DNA from: a virus
Virus record (IMG/VR): IMGVR_UViG_3300010222_000171
Coordinates: 4,817-68,816 of that record
Direction: 5' to 3' (one strand)
Length of the DNA: 64,000 nucleotides
Made by a program: the position numbers and the translations under genes. Below the pieces are notes generated by a model that saw only the letters and a program-made list of their open reading frames with translations, was not told where the DNA came from and did not search any database. Within the stretch, counting starts at the first letter, position 1. The number at the start of each line of letters is the position of its first letter. This document shows positions 10,187 through 61,497 of the stretch, in pieces.

Positions 10187-11184
10187 GCGAAATCCACACC
10201 GACGAATCGATAGCAGGAATAGAACCCGGAACAGAACTGACTGTTTCCGACGAAAAGATGGAAAGGGGCTTGGAATACGTATCAAAGTCCAGAATTAAGC
10301 TATATCGTCAATGTCCATTCAAATTTGCGATGAAATATTGGATGGAAGAACGACCGCCTGGAACGATGGCAACAGAGCGCGGTTCTCGGGTCCACCTTGT
10401 CTTCGAGAGATTCCACGAGAACCTGAAGGAGTACATCGCTGAGAACGGCGATAAGCCCGAGAGGTTCACACCGCTGATGCCTAATACCGGAAACGAAACT
10501 CAGTGGTTGGACTACATCTCAAACTTCTGGAAATTTGAGATGAGGAGATTGCGGGAGACTGATAGAACGTATGACTTCGCTTCTTCGAGGATTCCATCTG
10601 AGCAATTCAGTATGGATGATAGAGCAGTGGTACAGGCATGGGAACCCCTCGAAGTCGAAGCAGAGTTCTGGATGGGAGAACCACCTGATGACTACGACGG
10701 AGATCCCGACTACGTAGACGAGTCCGGCCCACCTGTCGGGGACATCCCTTGGATGGGAAAGGCTGACGTGGTGCTGAACAGTGCCAGCGTTCCCGGTGTT
10801 ACTGGCTCCGGTGTTACCATCCTCGACTACAAAACTGGTGACTGTCCAACTATCAAATACGAGGGAGCGCCGTTCCTTGATGATGTGATGGAAGACGTGA
10901 TGCTCGAAACAGAGTTCTACTCGTGGCTTGCCAGATCAATCTACGACGTAGATGCAGTCGCAATCTATTATCCTCGTGATGACGAACTTGTTATTGGGGA
11001 ACAAGGCGTTCAGGAACGTCGGTTCAAGATTAAGGAAGCCGCTCTCGGGATGCAAGAACTTCCCGAAGAATTGAACGAAAACGGCGAGCCGAACAACTTC
11101 GAACGCGATGAGGGGAATCTCTGCCATTGGGGGAGCGGCAAGTGTTGGTTTTATGACATTTGTGAAAGTGAACAAGGTAAGTAG
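10183..11184 (+). CDS. Cas4/AddB-like PD-(D/E)xK nuclease with Fe-S staple
   Basis: SKSRIKLYRQCPFKF, GKAD, ILDYKTG and C-terminal LCHWGSGKCWFYDIC. Confidence 0.85.
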   Translation: MSEIHTDESIAGIEPGTELTVSDEKMERGLEYVSKSRIKLYRQCPFKFAMKYWMEERPPGTMATERGSRVHLVFERFHENLKEYIAENGDKPERFTPLMPNTGNETQWLDYISNFWKFEMRRLRETDRTYDFASSRIPSEQFSMDDRAVVQAWEPLEVEAEFWMGEPPDDYDGDPDYVDESGPPVGDIPWMGKADVVLNSASVPGVTGSGVTILDYKTGDCPTIKYEGAPFLDDVMEDVMLETEFYSWLARSIYDVDAVAIYYPRDDELVIGEQGVQERRFKIKEAALGMQELPEELNENGEPNNFERDEGNLCHWGSGKCWFYDICESEQGK

Positions 11185-17087: not shown

Positions 17088-17213
17088 GTGAGTATTGCGT
17101 GTTCTGTGAAGACGGAAACCTGTCCTCACTGTGACGGCCCGCTCTACAAACGTCACTGCAAAATCTGCTGTGAACAGTGTGGTATAATTAGAGATTGTTC
17201 CGACCCATTCTAA
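17088..17213 (+). CDS. HVO_2523-like zinc-finger microprotein
   Basis: CPHCDGPLYKRHCKICCEQCGIIRDCSDPF matches the haloarchaeal small zinc-finger pattern. Start codon uncertain (GTG). Confidence 0.65.
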   Translation: MSIACSVKTETCPHCDGPLYKRHCKICCEQCGIIRDCSDPF

Positions 17214-17215
17214 TC

Positions 17216-18181
17216 ATGACAGAACTCAAAAAGTATCCCAGCATCAGCCGTATCGGTCACGAAGACAACAACGGAATCCTCGAAGACGGCCACATCGTCG
17301 TGAAAGAAAAATTAGATGGGGCTAACTTTAGACTGATGGGGGACCATCACCTCGACCCCGGTTATCGAGATGAGGAGCGGGAACTGGTCTTCGGTTCGCG
17401 CAACGTAGAATACAAGAACGAGAAAGACATAGACAAGAACTTCGACCACGCTGTTGAGTACGTCCGAGAAGAGGTAGACCTCGACGGTCTTCTGGAAGCA
17501 GAGACTAAATGGGGACCGCTTGTCGTCTTTGGTGAGGCGATGCATCCCCATACCCTTGAGTATCAATGGGATGATACGCCCCCCTTCATCGGATTTGATG
17601 TGTATGCAGTTCAGCCCGATGTGTTCTTGGACTGGGAAGAAGCGCGGAGCATTATCGGACAAATGTCCTTACCGACAACGCCGGTAGTGTATGAAGGTCC
17701 CGCTGACGGGTTCAAGAAGAAATATGGTCTGAACGAGTGGTCAAAACAAGTCTCGTCAGCGTACCGCAACGGTCTGCCAGAGGGGATTGTCATCAGGAAC
17801 GAAGATACAGGACAGACCGCGAAACTCCGAACACAGCAGTTCAAGGAAGCTCACGGAACGCAATCTGTTACGAACCCAGACGAGTACGAACCTTCGGACT
17901 CAGAGATTCTGGCGCGGAAATTTACGACCGAAGCTCGTGTTCTCAAGATGGTTCACAAATACGAAAATCGGAGTCTCACCATCGAAATGTCAATCATGGA
18001 AAGTTTGTGGGAAGACGTGTTCGAGGACATTATCGAAGAAGAGTTCTCAACGATCTTTCTTGGAAACTACGACCTCAACACCAAAGAGTTCCGCTCTGAG
18101 GTAGCAAGTATTACTGCTGATGTTCTTCAGTCGTACCTCGAACGGCCAGACGATTCGGTTCTCAACCAGGTGACTTCCTAA
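17216..18181 (+). CDS. ATP-dependent RNA ligase (Rnl2-like nucleotidyltransferase)
   Basis: YPSI N-terminus, KEKLDGANFR (motif I), FGEAM, FIGFDV, EGIVIR and AKLR. Confidence 0.85.
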   Translation: MTELKKYPSISRIGHEDNNGILEDGHIVVKEKLDGANFRLMGDHHLDPGYRDEERELVFGSRNVEYKNEKDIDKNFDHAVEYVREEVDLDGLLEAETKWGPLVVFGEAMHPHTLEYQWDDTPPFIGFDVYAVQPDVFLDWEEARSIIGQMSLPTTPVVYEGPADGFKKKYGLNEWSKQVSSAYRNGLPEGIVIRNEDTGQTAKLRTQQFKEAHGTQSVTNPDEYEPSDSEILARKFTTEARVLKMVHKYENRSLTIEMSIMESLWEDVFEDIIEEEFSTIFLGNYDLNTKEFRSEVASITADVLQSYLERPDDSVLNQVTS

Positions 18182-34138: not shown

Positions 34139-35443
34139 TTATCCGCCGTTCTCGATGGTGACGGTGTTCTCGATGTAGCGCAGTGGCTCAACGAGGTCAA
34201 TGGACATTTCCACGCCAACCGATGTTGCGTCTTCCTTCAAGACGTTGACATCGTAGCTGATGACAACCTGGGATTCAGCAAGCTCGGAAAGCTGATCGTT
34301 AATCATCCCGTTCAGCGTGTTCCTGACAACCTGATTGTTTAGCTTGCCGATGAACGGTTTCTGATTGTCCCGAGTGGTGTTGATGATGTAGTCAGCAACC
34401 AGTCGGTTGAAGCCGTAAGCAAGGTTATTCTCGTCCGTATTAGAATCCGAGACGGTAGTCGGGTCGTCAACAATCCGGACACCACGGGATTCGTTCGCCA
34501 GTGGGACAACATCTTCCGAGATTAGCGAACCACGCTCGGCGCGGTTCAGCGTTTCCGAAAGGTCCTTGTTGGTGCTCAGGCGCTTGTTGATCGGCGTGAC
34601 GGCGAGGCCAAGGTTGGCCTTGAAGCCAGCGTAGGAAGCCAGAGCTGAGGTGTTGTCCTCGAACCGGGTCGGATAAACGACCTGAGTTCGGCTGTCGTCG
34701 TAGTTCTGCGTGAAAGTGGCCGGGTCGAGGTTGATGTCGGCACCGCCAACACAAAGAGAAAGATCGTAGTTCTGCTCCATGTTAGCAACTTCGACGTTTG
34801 CCTTGTCTACGACATCTGTATTCTCCGAAATGGGAGCCAAGAAGTCGATAACGTCAGCGACCTCATTGACTGCTGTGTTAATTGCGGTGTGGTAATCAAA
34901 CGAATCGTAATCTACAGTGTCGTTGCCATCGTCGCCGTCACTGGGAATCGAAGGCAGTTCCAGGGTTCCACGAACCGGGTTAAAGAAACACTCGTCAGCG
35001 GCAGGCGTGTACGTAGACACATCATCGTAGACTGGATTGGTCCTCAGATCAGTGCCGTCAACGGACACTGAAACGTCATCTCTCCCCTCTCGTATTGGGG
35101 CATTGTCCAGCTGAATAGTAGTACTTCCAGCACCACTAATATCGTCAATGTGCCCATTGGATTCTGCAACAACAGCGTAAACGGGGTATGCTCCCTCGTT
35201 CAGAGCGTCGATGGCCGCCTGGGTCAGAAGGCTCGACTCTTTGGGGCCGAACCATTCGACCGCCTTTGAAGCGCGAGTTACCTGATAAACTTTCGTGGTG
35301 TCAGCAGCGTTCTCAGCGTTTGCGAGATCTGCCTGACCAACAATACAAAGATCGTTCGGGGCCGGGCCAAACGTCGGCACAGCCGCCGACGAGGTAACGT
35401 CCGTAACGATTCCGGGTTCGTTCTTATTTCCGTAAGTAGTCAT
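34139..35443 (-). CDS. tail sheath protein
   Basis: PGIVTDV N-terminus and C-terminal NRLVADY...FIGKLN...EPLRYI sheath motifs. Confidence 0.9.
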   Translation of the reverse strand: MTTYGNKNEPGIVTDVTSSAAVPTFGPAPNDLCIVGQADLANAENAADTTKVYQVTRASKAVEWFGPKESSLLTQAAIDALNEGAYPVYAVVAESNGHIDDISGAGSTTIQLDNAPIREGRDDVSVSVDGTDLRTNPVYDDVSTYTPAADECFFNPVRGTLELPSIPSDGDDGNDTVDYDSFDYHTAINTAVNEVADVIDFLAPISENTDVVDKANVEVANMEQNYDLSLCVGGADINLDPATFTQNYDDSRTQVVYPTRFEDNTSALASYAGFKANLGLAVTPINKRLSTNKDLSETLNRAERGSLISEDVVPLANESRGVRIVDDPTTVSDSNTDENNLAYGFNRLVADYIINTTRDNQKPFIGKLNNQVVRNTLNGMINDQLSELAESQVVISYDVNVLKEDATSVGVEMSIDLVEPLRYIENTVTIENGG

Positions 35444-53784: not shown

Positions 53785-53879
53785 TGGGCGAAAGGCTCTT
53801 GCTTGGAGCCTCGGATCGAGCTGGCCGCCGATCCCGCGAAGGCCCCTTATCGGTTTGGGGTCGGATGATGCCCATGGCC
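53785..53879 (+). ncRNA. type II hammerhead ribozyme A, variant core with inserted hairpin
   Basis: Stem II TGGGC/GCCCA, GAAA, stem III GGCTC/GAGCC, UC site at 53811-12, stem I GGATCG/CGATCC, core C-[insert]-GATGA and a pseudoknot. Confidence 0.6.
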
Positions 53880-53913
53880 CCAGAATGGGACGCAACCTAA
53901 CGGGGAAACAAAA

Positions 53914-59059: not shown

Positions 59060-59100
59060 TGTCCAAGTCGGCGTAGAGGGTTCGATTCCCTCTTGGACAT
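59060..59100 (+). ncRNA. tRNA-like minihelix (7-bp acceptor-like stem plus 5-bp T arm)
   Basis: TGTCCAA-gtcggcgta-GAGGG-TTCGATT-CCCTC-TTGGACA with perfect pairing. Confidence 0.7.
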
Positions 59101-59146: not shown

Positions 59147-60064
59147 ATGATCTACTACGTAGTAGTTGACCGACACGGGGATGAAATAGCCCGGTACGAA
59201 ACGGAATATGGGGCCGCGAACCACATCAAAGATGTTGGGTTTGGCTCCCATCACCTCCACGTCAAGGAGGTTGAACAGGACGACGAAACAGCCGACGATT
59301 CTCAGACCACCATGAGCAACTACGACTTCATCCAAACCGACGACGAAGAGGACGACAACCAAGACAGCGACAGCTTCCAGTCGCAGACCTTCGACTGGGG
59401 CTACGGCGAACACAGCACGGCATCGGGCGACGATCTCGATGTGTTGGGTGGGCAAATTCGGGCCACGATGGACGAACTCGATGAGGGGGTGGACGGGGAG
59501 ATGGTCGCCGTTCTCGAAGACGCCCAGGAGCTTGTCGGGTCCGTTTCGATCAACGACTTCGAGTGCTCCCACCCTGACTGTGGGCTGAGTCACGGTCACG
59601 GCCCCAACAAGCACGACATTCGGAACAGTGTGAACAGTTCGGGGATCGAGGGCTTCAACATCACTGACGAGTTCGCTGACCAAATGGAGTTCGTTGCGAA
59701 CTGCCACTGTGGAGCAAACGAAGCGGGGATGCTGGTTCAGTTCTTCCACTACTTCAACATCCCAATGTTCTCCGACCAAGAAGAGTTCGAAGGGGTGCTG
59801 GAGATGGACGCCGACGTAGTGACGGACATCTACCGGGAAGTCAACGAGAACGGCGTCTCGGTAGCTGCCGCTGTCGCTCGGGTCGCCGTGCAGCGCAGCG
59901 TAGCCGAATCAGAGATCGCTCCCGCTGGCCTTTGGGAAGACCTGGGGGCGTTCATCGAGCGCCGACAGCACGTTGAGGGAGGCGCAAACAGCGCCCCCAT
60001 CGGTCAGGAAACCCAGTCGGTGATCGATTCCCACCGGGAAGCCATCGAAGCTGTGATCCAGTAG
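59147..60064 (+). CDS. acidic hypothetical protein with Cys/His metal-binding motifs
   Basis: CSHPDCGLSHGH and CHCG. Confidence 0.8.
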   Translation: MIYYVVVDRHGDEIARYETEYGAANHIKDVGFGSHHLHVKEVEQDDETADDSQTTMSNYDFIQTDDEEDDNQDSDSFQSQTFDWGYGEHSTASGDDLDVLGGQIRATMDELDEGVDGEMVAVLEDAQELVGSVSINDFECSHPDCGLSHGHGPNKHDIRNSVNSSGIEGFNITDEFADQMEFVANCHCGANEAGMLVQFFHYFNIPMFSDQEEFEGVLEMDADVVTDIYREVNENGVSVAAAVARVAVQRSVAESEIAPAGLWEDLGAFIERRQHVEGGANSAPIGQETQSVIDSHREAIEAVIQ

Positions 60065-60075
60065 TCGGCGGTAAA

Positions 60076-60099
60076 GACTCGTATTCGTTAGGTTGCGTC
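60076..60099 (+). promoter_or_regulatory. dyad promoter motif copy upstream of hammerhead C
   Basis: GACTCGT-N10-TTGCGTC. Confidence 0.65.
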
Positions 60100-60108
60100 T
60101 TTTGAAGC

Positions 60109-60178
60109 GGGCGAAACGCCGGGGATTCCCGGCGTCGGGAGCGAGATGGTCGCCGTTCCCCTGATGCTGCCCATGACT
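60109..60178 (+). ncRNA. type II hammerhead ribozyme C
   Basis: GGGC GAAA CGCCGGG-gatt-CCCGGCG TC GGGAGCG-loop-CGTTCCC CTGATGC T GCCC. Pseudoknot GGTCG/TGACT. Confidence 0.75.
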
Positions 60179-60211
60179 GCGGTGCGGGCTTGGGATGCAA
60201 CCTAATCACAA

Positions 60212-60361
60212 ATGTGTGCTAACGACACCCCTACGACGGTCGAAACGGACGAAACGGTTGAAGGAAAAAGCTACCCAGAAAAAGTACGGGCACAATATAA
60301 TACGACAGACATGGGTGCTATCATGTCAAGATTCTATGAAGCTGTCAGTTGGAGAGAATAA
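60212..60361 (+). CDS. 49-aa microprotein
   Basis: First ORF after hammerhead C. Confidence 0.5.
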   Translation: MCANDTPTTVETDETVEGKSYPEKVRAQYNTTDMGAIMSRFYEAVSWRE

Positions 60362-60367
60362 ATAACT

Positions 60368-60622
60368 ATGACAGTCTCACATCTTGATATGTTCTACGAG
60401 ACACGGGCTTCGACCCATGTCTCACCATCCGCGCCCTCATCGAGTCCAAACACAGAACTAAATTCCACTCCAACTGCGGCGGAGATACGGTTTGCTGACG
60501 GACCGAACCGCTTCATCGATGCAGAAGGGTTCGAAGCTCCAGATGGAAGCGGATTCGAAGTGGCTCGGTTCTTGATTCAGAGGGCGATGATGGACCCAGA
60601 TGCAGTAGTGGTACCTACCTGA
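60368..60622 (+). CDS. hypothetical protein
   Basis: ORF in the early operon. Confidence 0.6.
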   Translation: MTVSHLDMFYETRASTHVSPSAPSSSPNTELNSTPTAAEIRFADGPNRFIDAEGFEAPDGSGFEVARFLIQRAMMDPDAVVVPT

Positions 60623-60672
60623 TCGGTTCGGTCTTGTCGAGAATAGCGGCTACCCCATTCTGAGGTGAACAA

Positions 60673-61356
60673 ATGACCCCCGAGTTACAACCCTGGATAC
60701 AGAATCACTATCCAGACTACGTTTCGGCGTTGCGTCGAGTGGAAAAGACACGAACATTGTTGCTCTCGGGGAGTCCCGAGAAAGCAGGTGAAATTCTGAG
60801 GAAGGCATACGTTTTCGCCGTTCTCAGTATCAGGACTGGCCTCGAACGCCACGAAAAAGGATTCACCCAGTGGTCTTCGGGTATGGACATCCGAGAAGCT
60901 GCGAAGGAAACGGTCTATCCTAACCAGAAAGCTGACTGGATGGAAGAAACGTTCCGATCAGTCGATTGGAATCAGTTCGGTGAGGCGGTCCAGTGTCACT
61001 TCGAGAAGGGGCGACACGAAACAGTCCTCGATCTCGTTGTTGACAAACTCAAAGGAACTTCTTACCGGAAGGGTGGCTTCGTACTCTCAATGTCCGGTGG
61101 CTACGAGTTCATGTGCATTGATTCGCACGTTGCTGACTTCGCCGGACTGGAGGACCGTACAGGAAATTCCCTCAGCTTCAACTCAGCGGGGGGTTATCTG
61201 AACCAGTGCAGCAAAGTAGTTGCGAAGCTCCCGAACCCGCTGAACCTTCCGCCGTTCCTACTGCAATGGGCAATCTATGATTGGCAGCGAAGCGAACACG
61301 CTCGCCACATGGCTTTCTACCGTGAGGTGCTTCCAGAAATTCTCTTTGAAGGATAA
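60673..61356 (+). CDS. HhH-GPD-like DNA glycosylase family protein
   Basis: GAGGTG ribosome-binding site. KLKGTSYRKGGF hairpin-like motif followed by CIDSHV. Confidence 0.55.
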   Translation: MTPELQPWIQNHYPDYVSALRRVEKTRTLLLSGSPEKAGEILRKAYVFAVLSIRTGLERHEKGFTQWSSGMDIREAAKETVYPNQKADWMEETFRSVDWNQFGEAVQCHFEKGRHETVLDLVVDKLKGTSYRKGGFVLSMSGGYEFMCIDSHVADFAGLEDRTGNSLSFNSAGGYLNQCSKVVAKLPNPLNLPPFLLQWAIYDWQRSEHARHMAFYREVLPEILFEG

Positions 61357-61388: not shown

Positions 61389-61497
61389 TGGGCGAAAGGC
61401 TGTATCATAATCCTCAACTCTTATTTAAATGAGTTGTGTCCTGTGTTACAGTCTCAGTTCGGGAGTAGCCATCCGAATCCTGAAGATGCCCACGGCT
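61389..61497 (+). ncRNA. type II hammerhead ribozyme B with a 42-nt stem III insert
   Basis: TGGGC GAAA GGCTGTA...TACAGTC TC A-GTTCGG-loop-CCGAAT-C CTGAAGA T GCCCA. Pseudoknot AGCC/GGCT. Confidence 0.8.

What the first reader, a model, noticed from the sequence alone, without database searches (positions are those of the whole stretch)
60109..60178. Hammerhead C: perfect stems but an A9-to-C core variant
Seen: 7-bp stems I and III and a 5-bp pseudoknot, with core CUGAUGC rather than CUGAUGA. Established: A9 forms a sheared pair with G12 and is highly conserved. Inference: this is a naturally attenuated or salt-adapted ribozyme giving partial cleavage, which could tune expression of the 60212-61356 operon.
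Basis: partly seen in the sequence, partly recalled or inferred. Interest (0 to 1): 0.62.

Follow-up and report, generated by a model that had tools for sequence, protein, structure and literature searches.

The report
Halovirus hammerhead ribozyme lacking core A9
A genuine self-cutting hammerhead RNA in a virus of salt-loving archaea has one essential core base changed (A to C), so it probably cuts slowly or not at all; a related virus lost the same base independently, which is a modest curiosity until tested at the bench.

Summary
Window 60109-60178 is a type II, pseudoknotted hammerhead with a C at core position 9, where A is expected.

It is not a chance match. Rfam Hammerhead_II scores it at 31.1 bits (E 6.5e-6 in its own genome). 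That is the same sub-threshold range (28-34 bits) as its relatives with a normal core.

It belongs to a clade found in five related ~72-kb haloarchaeal myoviruses. Covariation in that clade is strong: 95.6% of cells paired, 11 of 18 pairs changed on both sides, 0 of 500 shuffles as good. The clade has the same layout as HHphage of haloviruses HF1/HF2.

This U is typical of the clade.

Position 9 is A in 14 of 16 complete copies. The window's C is a derived singleton. The orthologue in a second virus has deleted A9, and a 99%-identical strain keeps that deletion, so this site tolerates loss of A9.

More distant relatives carry a tRNA top-half mimic at the same site. This points to RNA processing upstream of two conserved small genes.

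Whether the C attenuates, kills or barely affects cleavage is untested. Adaptive "tuning" is unsupported.

The same scan had already noted the two sister hammerheads on this window.

This is a new variant of a known kind, of moderate interest.

The parts
60109..60112 (+). Stem II, 5'-proximal strand GGGC (positions 11.4-11.1). It pairs with 60169-60172.
   Evidence: Sequence. Rfam alignment. Helix 1 of the family alignment is 96% paired.
60113..60116 (+). Core G12 A13 A14 plus A15.1 (GAAA).
   Evidence: Invariant in all 13 aligned copies.
60117..60134 (+). Stem III hairpin: CGCCGGG / CCCGGCG with loop GAUU.
   Evidence: The outer three pairs are 100% paired, and two of them change on both sides.
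60135..60136 (+). U16.1 and C17. The predicted scissile bond lies between 60136 and 60137.
   Evidence: Position in the Rfam and R1 alignments. Cleavage itself was not tested.
60137..60160 (+). Stem I hairpin: GGGAGCG / CGUUCCC (7 bp, one G-U) with a 10-nt loop at 60144-60153.
   Evidence: Helix 3 is 100% paired, and 6 of its 7 pairs change on both sides.
60161..60166 (+). Core C3 U4 G5 A6 U7 G8 (CUGAUG), canonical.
60167..60167 (+). Position 9 is C, where 14 of 16 family copies have A. This is the variant in question.
60168..60168 (+). Extra U between position 9 and G10.1. Twelve of the 16 complete copies carry it after an A9. The window's copy has it after C9. In G001 a U is the only base between G8 and G10.1.
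   Evidence: It is absent in both G003 copies, in G002 57652 and in HF1/HF2 HHphage.
60169..60172 (+). Stem II, 3'-proximal strand GCCC (positions 10.1-10.4).
60148..60152 (+). Pseudoknot strand in loop I (GGUCG).
   Evidence: It pairs with 60174-60178. The central 4 bp covary across copies as GGUC/GACU, GGCC/GGCC, GGAC/GUCC and AGCC/GGCU.
60174..60178 (+). Pseudoknot strand in the 3' tail (UGACU).
60087..60101 (+). 5' strand of a predicted 15-bp outer helix. It overlaps the AAAGAC...GUCUUU dyad / promoter-like motif.
   Evidence: MFE fold: -60 kcal/mol, z -3.35. It can form only in read-through transcripts. Prediction only.
60192..60206 (+). 3' strand of the predicted outer helix. It contains the conserved motif GGGAUGCAACCU just upstream of the start codon at 60212.
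60212..60622 (+). Two conserved small genes downstream (49 aa at 60212-60361, 84 aa at 60368-60622).
   Evidence: tblastn finds both in the same order after the orthologous element in related viruses, at 46-70% identity.
60673..61356 (+). A 227-aa gene. It resembles genes annotated as endonuclease III in haloviruses HATV-2 and HGTV-1.
   Evidence: 28-30% identity. No Pfam hit. Found in G002 only among the near relatives.
61389..61497 (+). Sister hammerhead B (core CUGAAGA-U-GCCC, long stem III). It closes the cassette.
   Evidence: R1 scores it at 25 bits, E 9.5e-5.
53785..53879 (+). Sister hammerhead A (core ...GAUGA-U-GCCC, with a hairpin inserted in the core).
   Evidence: R1 scores it at 20.5 bits.

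Best explanation
Element C is a true, syntenic member of a halovirus clade of type II hammerhead ribozymes. These ribozymes have a pseudoknot between loop I and the 3' tail, and the clade has the same layout as HHphage of HF1/HF2.

The element sits in the 148-nt gap between a 305-aa gene and a conserved pair of small genes. Its job there is to cut the viral RNA after 60136. The upstream piece would end in the GC-rich stem III hairpin with a 2',3'-cyclic phosphate. The downstream message would start with a 5'-OH and the stem I hairpin.

In this virus the adenine at core position 9 has become C. That removes the sheared A9-G12 pair next to the general base G12 and next to the A9/G10.1 metal site. 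All helices, the pseudoknot and the other 10 core bases are intact.

Most likely this is a slowed ribozyme. Any residual activity would depend on the molar K+ and high Mg2+ inside haloarchaea.

Shown: family membership, synteny, covariation, and the derived state of the C.

Inferred: that it is transcribed, that it still cleaves, and how much the rate drops.
For: - Rfam RF02276 gives a full-length match at 31.1 bits, E 6.5e-6 in its own genome.
- A model built on five clean copies finds 13 strong hits (E < 1e-8) in five related viruses and one metagenome contig (L126), plus weaker hits to three insert-bearing copies and a cut copy in L127.
- Covariation: 95.6% of cells paired, 11 of 18 pairs with double changes, 0 of 500 shuffles as good. 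Controls with the partner slid sideways pair at 39-56%.
- The orthologous element lies directly after the 305-aa gene homologue and before the orf49/orf84 homologues in G001-G004, L126 and L127.
- Stem I shows a compensatory A-U to G-C change between the window's copy and the G004 orthologue.
- Mincapviruses and G005 carry a tRNA top-half mimic at the same site. That argues the site is selected for RNA cleavage.
- HF1/HF2 HHphage shares the layout and the GGUC/GACC pseudoknot. The 5' end of its transcript was mapped within 3 nt of the cleavage site (PMC3088659).
- The saltern variant HHmeta, which has a core insertion, regains about 0.1 per min at 75-300 mM Mg2+.
- The G001 orthologue lacks A9, and a strain that differs at 82 of 8771 aligned positions (plus 9 gaps) also lacks it.
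- Folding C against A at 60167 gives the same secondary structure, with P(G12-C67) = 0.02.
Against: - A9 is A in 14 of 16 copies and is a strictly conserved core base. Core substitutions usually cost activity (PMC3088659, section 8), and some natural variants were inactive.
- No other record carries C9, so nothing shows that selection maintains it.
- No transcript or cleavage data exist.
- The score is below the Rfam gathering threshold.
- In read-through transcripts a predicted 15-bp outer helix would hold the two cleavage products together.
Confidence: 0.5

Rival explanations
1. It is a recently inactivated ribozyme. The A-to-C change killed catalysis. The helices look intact only because too little time has passed for further decay, or because the fold is kept for a role other than cutting, such as a structured leader or a protective hairpin.
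For: - The C is a singleton among 16 copies.
- No second record carries it.
- A9 pairs with the general base G12 (PMC11300833).
- Perreault et al. found natural core variants with no detectable activity.
- Half of the complete orthologues at this site carry some core defect: the window, G001 and G002. That fits relaxed constraint here.
Against: - The rest of the element has no defect. All four helices and 10 of 11 core bases are canonical.
- The A9-less G001 orthologue also keeps perfect helices and an 8-bp pseudoknot, and it is stable across two strains.
- The site is filled by another RNA-processing signal in viruses that lack the hammerhead, so cleavage appears to be needed there.
Confidence: 0.3
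2. The C is a base-calling or assembly error, or a minority allele, in a genome assembled from a metagenome. The real virus has the consensus A.
For: Only one record carries it. The closest relatives are known only from proteins 96%, 84% and 80% identical to the neighbouring gene, and their DNA could not be fetched.
Against: Single-base substitution errors are rare in assembled consensus sequence (general knowledge). An independent natural loss of A9 at the same site in another virus is confirmed in two assemblies, so such variants do occur.
Confidence: 0.1
3. It is a chance hammerhead-like motif with no RNA function.
For: The score is below the Rfam gathering score. The same Rfam search at a loose threshold also matches 11 of 14 control genomes.
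Against: - E 6.5e-6 in its own genome.
- Orthologues at the same site in six other sequences.
- Covariation in all four helices.
Confidence: 0.01

Closest known systems
Type II hammerhead ribozyme with a loop I / 3'-tail pseudoknot (Rfam RF02276; Perreault et al. 2011, PMC3088659)
   Same: - Order of parts: stem II strand, GAAA, stem III hairpin, H17, stem I hairpin, CUGANGA-like core, stem II strand, tail.
- The pseudoknot.
- Location in an intergenic region of a virus or prophage.
- Several copies per genome flanking genes.
   Different: - Position 9 is C rather than A.
- An extra U precedes G10.1.
- The score is 31.1 bits, under the 37-bit threshold.
- Activity is untested.
HHphage (haloviruses HF1/HF2) and HHmeta (solar-saltern viral DNA), variant type II hammerheads (PMC3088659, Figure 6)
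   Same: - Haloarchaeal virus setting.
- Type II layout.
- The same GGUC/GACC pseudoknot, read here in HF1/HF2 at 10290-10366.
- A core that departs from the consensus.
- Position just upstream of a gene, at or near the start of a transcript.
   Different: - Their departure is a 2-nt insertion beside C3. A9 is intact and there is no extra U.
- Here C3 to G8 are canonical and the change is at position 9.
- HHmeta was assayed. This element was not.
CChMVd (+) hammerhead with an extra A10 between A9 and G10.1 (De la Pena and Flores 2001, as cited in PMC1636495)
   Same: One extra nucleotide at exactly the same place in the core. It is tolerated with only a moderate loss of rate.
   Different: - It is a type III viroid ribozyme.
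- The extra base is A, not U.
- A9 itself is present.
Natural A6C hammerheads (phage Bcep176, PMC3088659; Naghdi et al. 2020, PMC7151607)
   Same: A single natural substitution of a conserved core adenine in a phage intergenic hammerhead. It leaves low activity and changes the metal-ion preference.
   Different: A different core position (6 rather than 9). It was tested at the bench and favours Mn2+. Nothing comparable is known for position 9.
tRNA top-half mimic (an element like the haloarchaeal t-element) at the syntenic site in Mincapviruses (HSTV-2, HRTV-7, HCTV-6) and in G005
   Same: The same intergenic slot, after the 305-aa gene homologue and before the small genes. It is followed by the same GGGAYRCAACCU motif. 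It is presumed to be an RNA-processing signal.
   Different: It would be cut by host enzymes that process tRNA, not by itself. It has no sequence or structural homology to the hammerhead.

Membership tests
Hammerhead ribozyme, type II (RF02276) | Three helices around a junction in the type II order, with stems I and III capped and stem II open. | tested here: met
   All three helices are supported by covariation.
Hammerhead ribozyme, type II (RF02276) | Core strand C3 U4 G5 A6 N7 G8 A9. | tested here: not met
   Positions 3 to 8 are canonical (CUGAUG, 60161-66). Position 9 is C (60167), and an extra U follows it.
Hammerhead ribozyme, type II (RF02276) | Core strand G12 A13 A14, the A15.1-U16.1 pair, and a non-G base at position 17. 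| tested here: met
   GAAA at 60113-16, U at 60135, C at 60136.
Hammerhead ribozyme, type II (RF02276) | G10.1-C11.1 as the first pair of stem II. | tested here: met
   G60169 pairs with C60112. P = 0.98 in the ensemble of the 76-nt core fragment, 0.73 in the 126-nt fold.
Hammerhead ribozyme, type II (RF02276) | [quoted passage not shown] | tested here: met
   60148-52 pairs with 60174-78. The central 4 bp covary (helix 4, 84.6% paired; the misses are register shifts in copies with a 3-bp stem II).
Hammerhead ribozyme, type II (RF02276) | A score at or above the Rfam gathering threshold (37 bits). | tested here: not met
   31.1 bits. Clade members with a canonical core score 28.1-33.6, so the shortfall belongs to the whole clade.
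Hammerhead ribozyme, type II (RF02276) | Site-specific self-cleavage that yields 2',3'-cyclic phosphate and 5'-OH ends. | not testable with these tools
   This needs in vitro transcription and kinetics, or mapping of RNA ends.
Halovirus hammerhead clade (HHphage-like) | Intergenic position in a Hafunaviridae-like haloarchaeal myovirus, with orthologues at the same site. | tested here: met
   - The neighbouring proteins match Mincapviruses at 34-38%.
- Orthologues are present in G001-G004, L126 and L127.
- HHphage has the same layout.
Halovirus hammerhead clade (HHphage-like) | The 2-nt insertion next to C3 (positions 2a/2b) that marks HHphage and HHmeta. | tested here: not met
   Stem I runs directly into C3 (60160 to 60161). 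No insertion is present.

The most novel reading that the evidence does not exclude
In this halovirus clade the extra U next to G10.1 can take over the partner role for G12. Adenine 9 then becomes dispensable. That would explain why A9 was lost twice, by substitution here and by deletion in G001, and only in lineages that carry the U. These RNAs would then be a distinct, still active hammerhead core variant that works at haloarchaeal salt and Mg2+ levels, rather than damaged copies.
Probability: 0.15. Interest if true: 0.6.

Novelty: new variant of a known kind. Interest (0 to 1): 0.4.

Why it matters
The hammerhead core is among the most strictly conserved RNA motifs, and natural exceptions are rare. 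Some of them, such as A6C and the HHmeta insertion, have shown altered metal-ion needs.

A natural hammerhead without A9, in an otherwise flawless and syntenically conserved ribozyme, gives a ready-made test set. Alongside it are a second independent A9 loss and canonical orthologues for comparison. Together they can show how far extreme ionic conditions relax the core.

They can also test whether the extra U buffers the loss of A9.

The whole halovirus clade scores under the Rfam threshold, so routine annotation misses these ribozymes.

If the C turns out to be a dead-end mutation or a read error, the element is simply one more halovirus hammerhead.

Tried and rejected
**Searches that found nothing useful**
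- Rfam at gathering threshold: no hit in the window.
- blastn of the region against phage records: no match.
- Locus searches with single proteins (the 305-aa and 949-aa proteins) in IMG/VR: nothing.
- Pattern scan of IMG/VR for the exact CUGAUGCUGC core: 117 stretches, about the number expected by chance. On inspection all were coding sequence except the window's own record.
- Scan for close copies of the stem I / core segment: only G004.
- Clade-wide pattern scan: only G001, G002 and G004 plus three false hits with no stems.
- Genome-contig scan: one distant locus with no hammerhead.
- No relatives are drawn for a virus record.

The contigs of the 96%, 84% and 80% relatives (P0001-P0003) could not be read.

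**Literature**
- No held paper gives rates for A9C or A9U. "Hammerhead redux" is not held.
- I therefore give no figure for the rate loss.

**Hypotheses tested and dropped**
- That C67 pairs with G12 and misfolds the core: P = 0.02.
- That cleavage exposes the start codon: accessibility is the same for the uncleaved leader and the 3' product, 0.58 in both.
- My first reading, that A9 is replaced by CU and this is not a simple substitution. I dropped it after aligning the family, because the U is typical of the clade.

Full report
**1. What is there**

The window belongs to a 72,184-base IMG/VR virus record. It encodes a terminase, portal, tail sheath, tape measure and DNA polymerase. Its nearest cultured relatives are haloarchaeal myoviruses of the genus Mincapvirus (HSTV-2, HRTV-7, HCTV-6), at 34-38% protein identity.

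The finding lies in the 148-nt gap between a 305-aa gene (59147-60064) and a 49-aa gene that starts at 60212.

Read directly, the parts are:
- GGGC at 60109-12.
- GAAA at 60113-16.
- A stem III hairpin at 60117-34 (7 Watson-Crick pairs plus A15.1-U16.1, loop GAUU).
- U at 60135 and C at 60136.
- A stem I hairpin at 60137-60 (7 bp with one G-U, 10-nt loop).
- CUGAUG at 60161-66.
- C at 60167.
- U at 60168.
- GCCC at 60169-72.
- A tail whose UGACU (60174-78) pairs with GGUCG (60148-52) in loop I.

This is the type II hammerhead order of parts.
- The stems are not strictly perfect. One G-U sits in stem I and two in the pseudoknot.
- An extra U lies between position 9 and stem II.
- The Rfam score is sub-threshold.

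**2. More than chance**

Rfam finds nothing at gathering threshold. With E-value reporting, Hammerhead_II matches over its full length at 31.1 bits. The E-value is 0.00096 in 2.5 kb, 0.025 for the whole window against all families, and 6.5e-6 in its own genome.

I read both.
- A, at 53785-53879, ends in GAUGA-U-GCCC.
- B, at 61389-61497, has CUGAAGA-U-GCCC.

Homologues of the 305-aa protein, aligned as A2, retrieved related loci from metagenomes and IMG/VR. In G001, G002, G003, G004, L126 and L127 a hammerhead follows the homologous gene directly. Homologues of the 49-aa and 84-aa genes follow it in G001-G004 and L126; the L127 contig ends inside the ribozyme.

I built a covariance model (R1) from five clean copies. 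It finds 13 hits with E < 1e-8. It also finds, more weakly, the copies that carry inserts.

On the 13-sequence alignment:
- 95.6% of cells pair.
- 11 of 18 pairs show changes on both sides.
- No shuffle out of 500 reaches the observed values.
- Sliding the partner by 1-3 columns drops pairing to 39-56%.

The pseudoknot covaries as GGUC/GACU, GGCC/GGCC, GGAC/GUCC and AGCC/GGCU. The element is a real, selected RNA structure.

**3. The core variant in its family context**

Taken alone, the sequence reads CUGAUG-CU-GCCC. My first reading was that A9 had been replaced by two bases.

The family alignment shows otherwise. The U before G10.1 is typical of the clade: 12 of the 16 complete copies have it after an A9, and the window's copy and G001's also keep a U there. 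It is absent in both G003 copies, in G002 57652 and in HF1/HF2 HHphage. An extra base at this exact place has a precedent in the CChMVd (+) hammerhead, where it causes only a moderate loss of rate (PMC1636495).

Against that background, 60167 is a plain A9-to-C change. Position 9 is A in 14 of 16 complete copies.

The second exception is the orthologue in G001, which reads CUGACG-U-GCCC. There A9 has been deleted, which leaves a U at position 9. A second assembly (L125) has the same sequence. It is 98.96% identical to G001 over 8.77 kb, with 82 mismatches. That loss is therefore real and inherited.

A third orthologue (G002, L130:4821-4895) has an A inserted after C3 and barely any stem II. 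This resembles the insertions near C3 in HHmeta and HHphage.

So three of the six complete orthologues at this site depart from the core consensus, and two of them lack A9. None of the ten paralogues at other sites lacks A9. With these numbers the contrast is suggestive only (one-sided Fisher p = 0.125, my own hand arithmetic).

No other IMG/VR record carries C9.

**4. What the C should do**

In crystal structures, including a pseudoknotted hammerhead, A9 forms a sheared pair with G12. That pair sits next to the G10.1-C11.1 pair (PMC11300833). G12 is the general base, and the A9/G10.1 site binds a metal ion (PMC6257768). A cytosine cannot make that pair.

Perreault et al. report that natural core variants range from slow, such as A6C at under 0.1 per min, to inactive.

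I found no held paper with rates for A9C, so I give no number.

Secondary-structure modelling shows no misfolding. C and A at 60167 give the same fold, and a G12-C67 pair has probability 0.02. Any effect should therefore be local and tertiary.

A precedent for rescue by the host's internal conditions exists. HHmeta is nearly inactive at 15 mM Mg2+ but reaches about 0.13 per min at 300 mM. Haloarchaea can hold very high internal Mg2+ and K+.

**5. What the element is for**

Three lines of evidence point to RNA processing.
- In Mincapviruses and in G005 the same slot holds a tRNA top-half mimic: a 7-bp acceptor-like stem plus a T-arm with a UUCGAGU or UUCAAUU loop. Neither ARAGORN nor Rfam calls it. 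A self-cutting RNA and a mimic of a host tRNA-processing substrate that can replace each other at one site argue that the site is selected for cleavage. This step is inference.
- In HF1/HF2 the 5' end of the transcript maps within 3 nt of the HHphage cleavage site. HF2 intergenic repeats are promoters, and its long transcripts appear to be processed (PMC8707807).
- Hammerheads C and B bracket the 60212-61356 cassette. This resembles the multi-hammerhead arrangements in prophages.

Upstream of C lies a conserved TAAGACTC...GTCTTT dyad that ends 6-10 nt before the ribozyme. It could be a promoter, a terminator or both. I could not decide which.

If transcription starts there, cleavage would remove a triphosphate leader of about 35 nt.

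If RNA reads through from the 305-aa gene, a predicted 15-bp outer helix (60087-60101 with 60192-60206; MFE -60 kcal/mol, z -3.35) would hold the two products together. The same helix would cover the GGGAUGCAACCU motif in front of the start codon.

**6. Verdict**

The element is a genuine member of a known kind: halovirus type II pseudoknotted hammerheads, closest to HHphage. It carries a core variant that none of the papers I read reports. I did not check the full alignments in Dataset S1 of Perreault et al.

The reading that it is "attenuated, salt-adapted and tunes expression" is plausible but untested.

My estimates:
- A slowed but still working ribozyme: about 0.5.
- A recently dead copy: about 0.3.
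- A read or assembly error: about 0.1.
- Chance: about 0.01.

The most novel reading still open is that the clade's extra U substitutes for A9. That would explain the two independent losses. I put it at about 0.15.

**7. Limits**

The DNA of the nearest relatives, whose neighbouring proteins are 96%, 84% and 80% identical, could not be examined. That was the only available check on the base itself.
- No transcript data were available.

Noticed in passing
L129:4828-4903 (G001) and L125:4828-4903: The orthologous hammerhead in a related virus reads CUGACG-U-GCCC, so A9 is deleted. Its helices are perfect and an 8-bp pseudoknot is possible. Two assemblies 98.96% identical over 8.77 kb share it.
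   Followed up: yes
L130:4821-4895 (G002): The orthologue at the same site has an A inserted between C3 and U4 and only about one stem II pair, while its pseudoknot is intact. This resembles the HHmeta/HHphage insertions next to C3.
   Followed up: partly
L134:4679-4722 (HSTV-2; the same in L120-L124) and L133:4844-4887 (G005): More distant relatives have a tRNA top-half mimic (7-bp acceptor-like stem plus a T-arm) at the syntenic intergenic site instead of a hammerhead. Neither ARAGORN nor Rfam calls it.
   Followed up: partly
window 60192-60203 and 53887-53898; also in G001, G004 and the Mincapvirus loci: The motif GGGAYRCAACCU recurs 10-20 nt upstream of start codons, after hammerheads and after tRNA-like elements alike. 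It is not a Shine-Dalgarno sequence, and its role is unknown.
   Followed up: partly
G001-G004 (loci L138-L142) and window 60109-60175: Every hammerhead of this halovirus clade scores 28-34 bits against Rfam RF02276, including those with a canonical core. That is under the 37-bit gathering score, so standard annotation misses the whole clade.
   Followed up: yes
window 60076-60103 and the equivalent stretch in the orthologues: A conserved dyad, TAAGACTC...(G)GTCTTT(T), lies directly between the stop codon of the 305-aa gene and the ribozyme. It could be a promoter, a U-tract terminator hairpin or a protein-binding site.
   Followed up: no
window 17195-18181: A 328-aa protein matches the Pfam RNA_ligase family (PF09414, E 7.5e-20). 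This is notable in a genome with several RNA-cleaving elements.
   Followed up: partly
window 59076-59092: A perfect T-arm-like hairpin (GAGGGUUCGAUUCCCUC on the + strand) lies in the leader of the 305-aa gene. It showed up as spurious minus-strand Rfam hits to plastid UTR families.
   Followed up: no
G004 35274-35351, minus strand (L162:15274-15351): A weak hit of the clade model (20.6 bits, E 0.002) has a ...UACGAAGA-U-GCC core. It may be another insert-bearing copy or a false hit.
   Followed up: no
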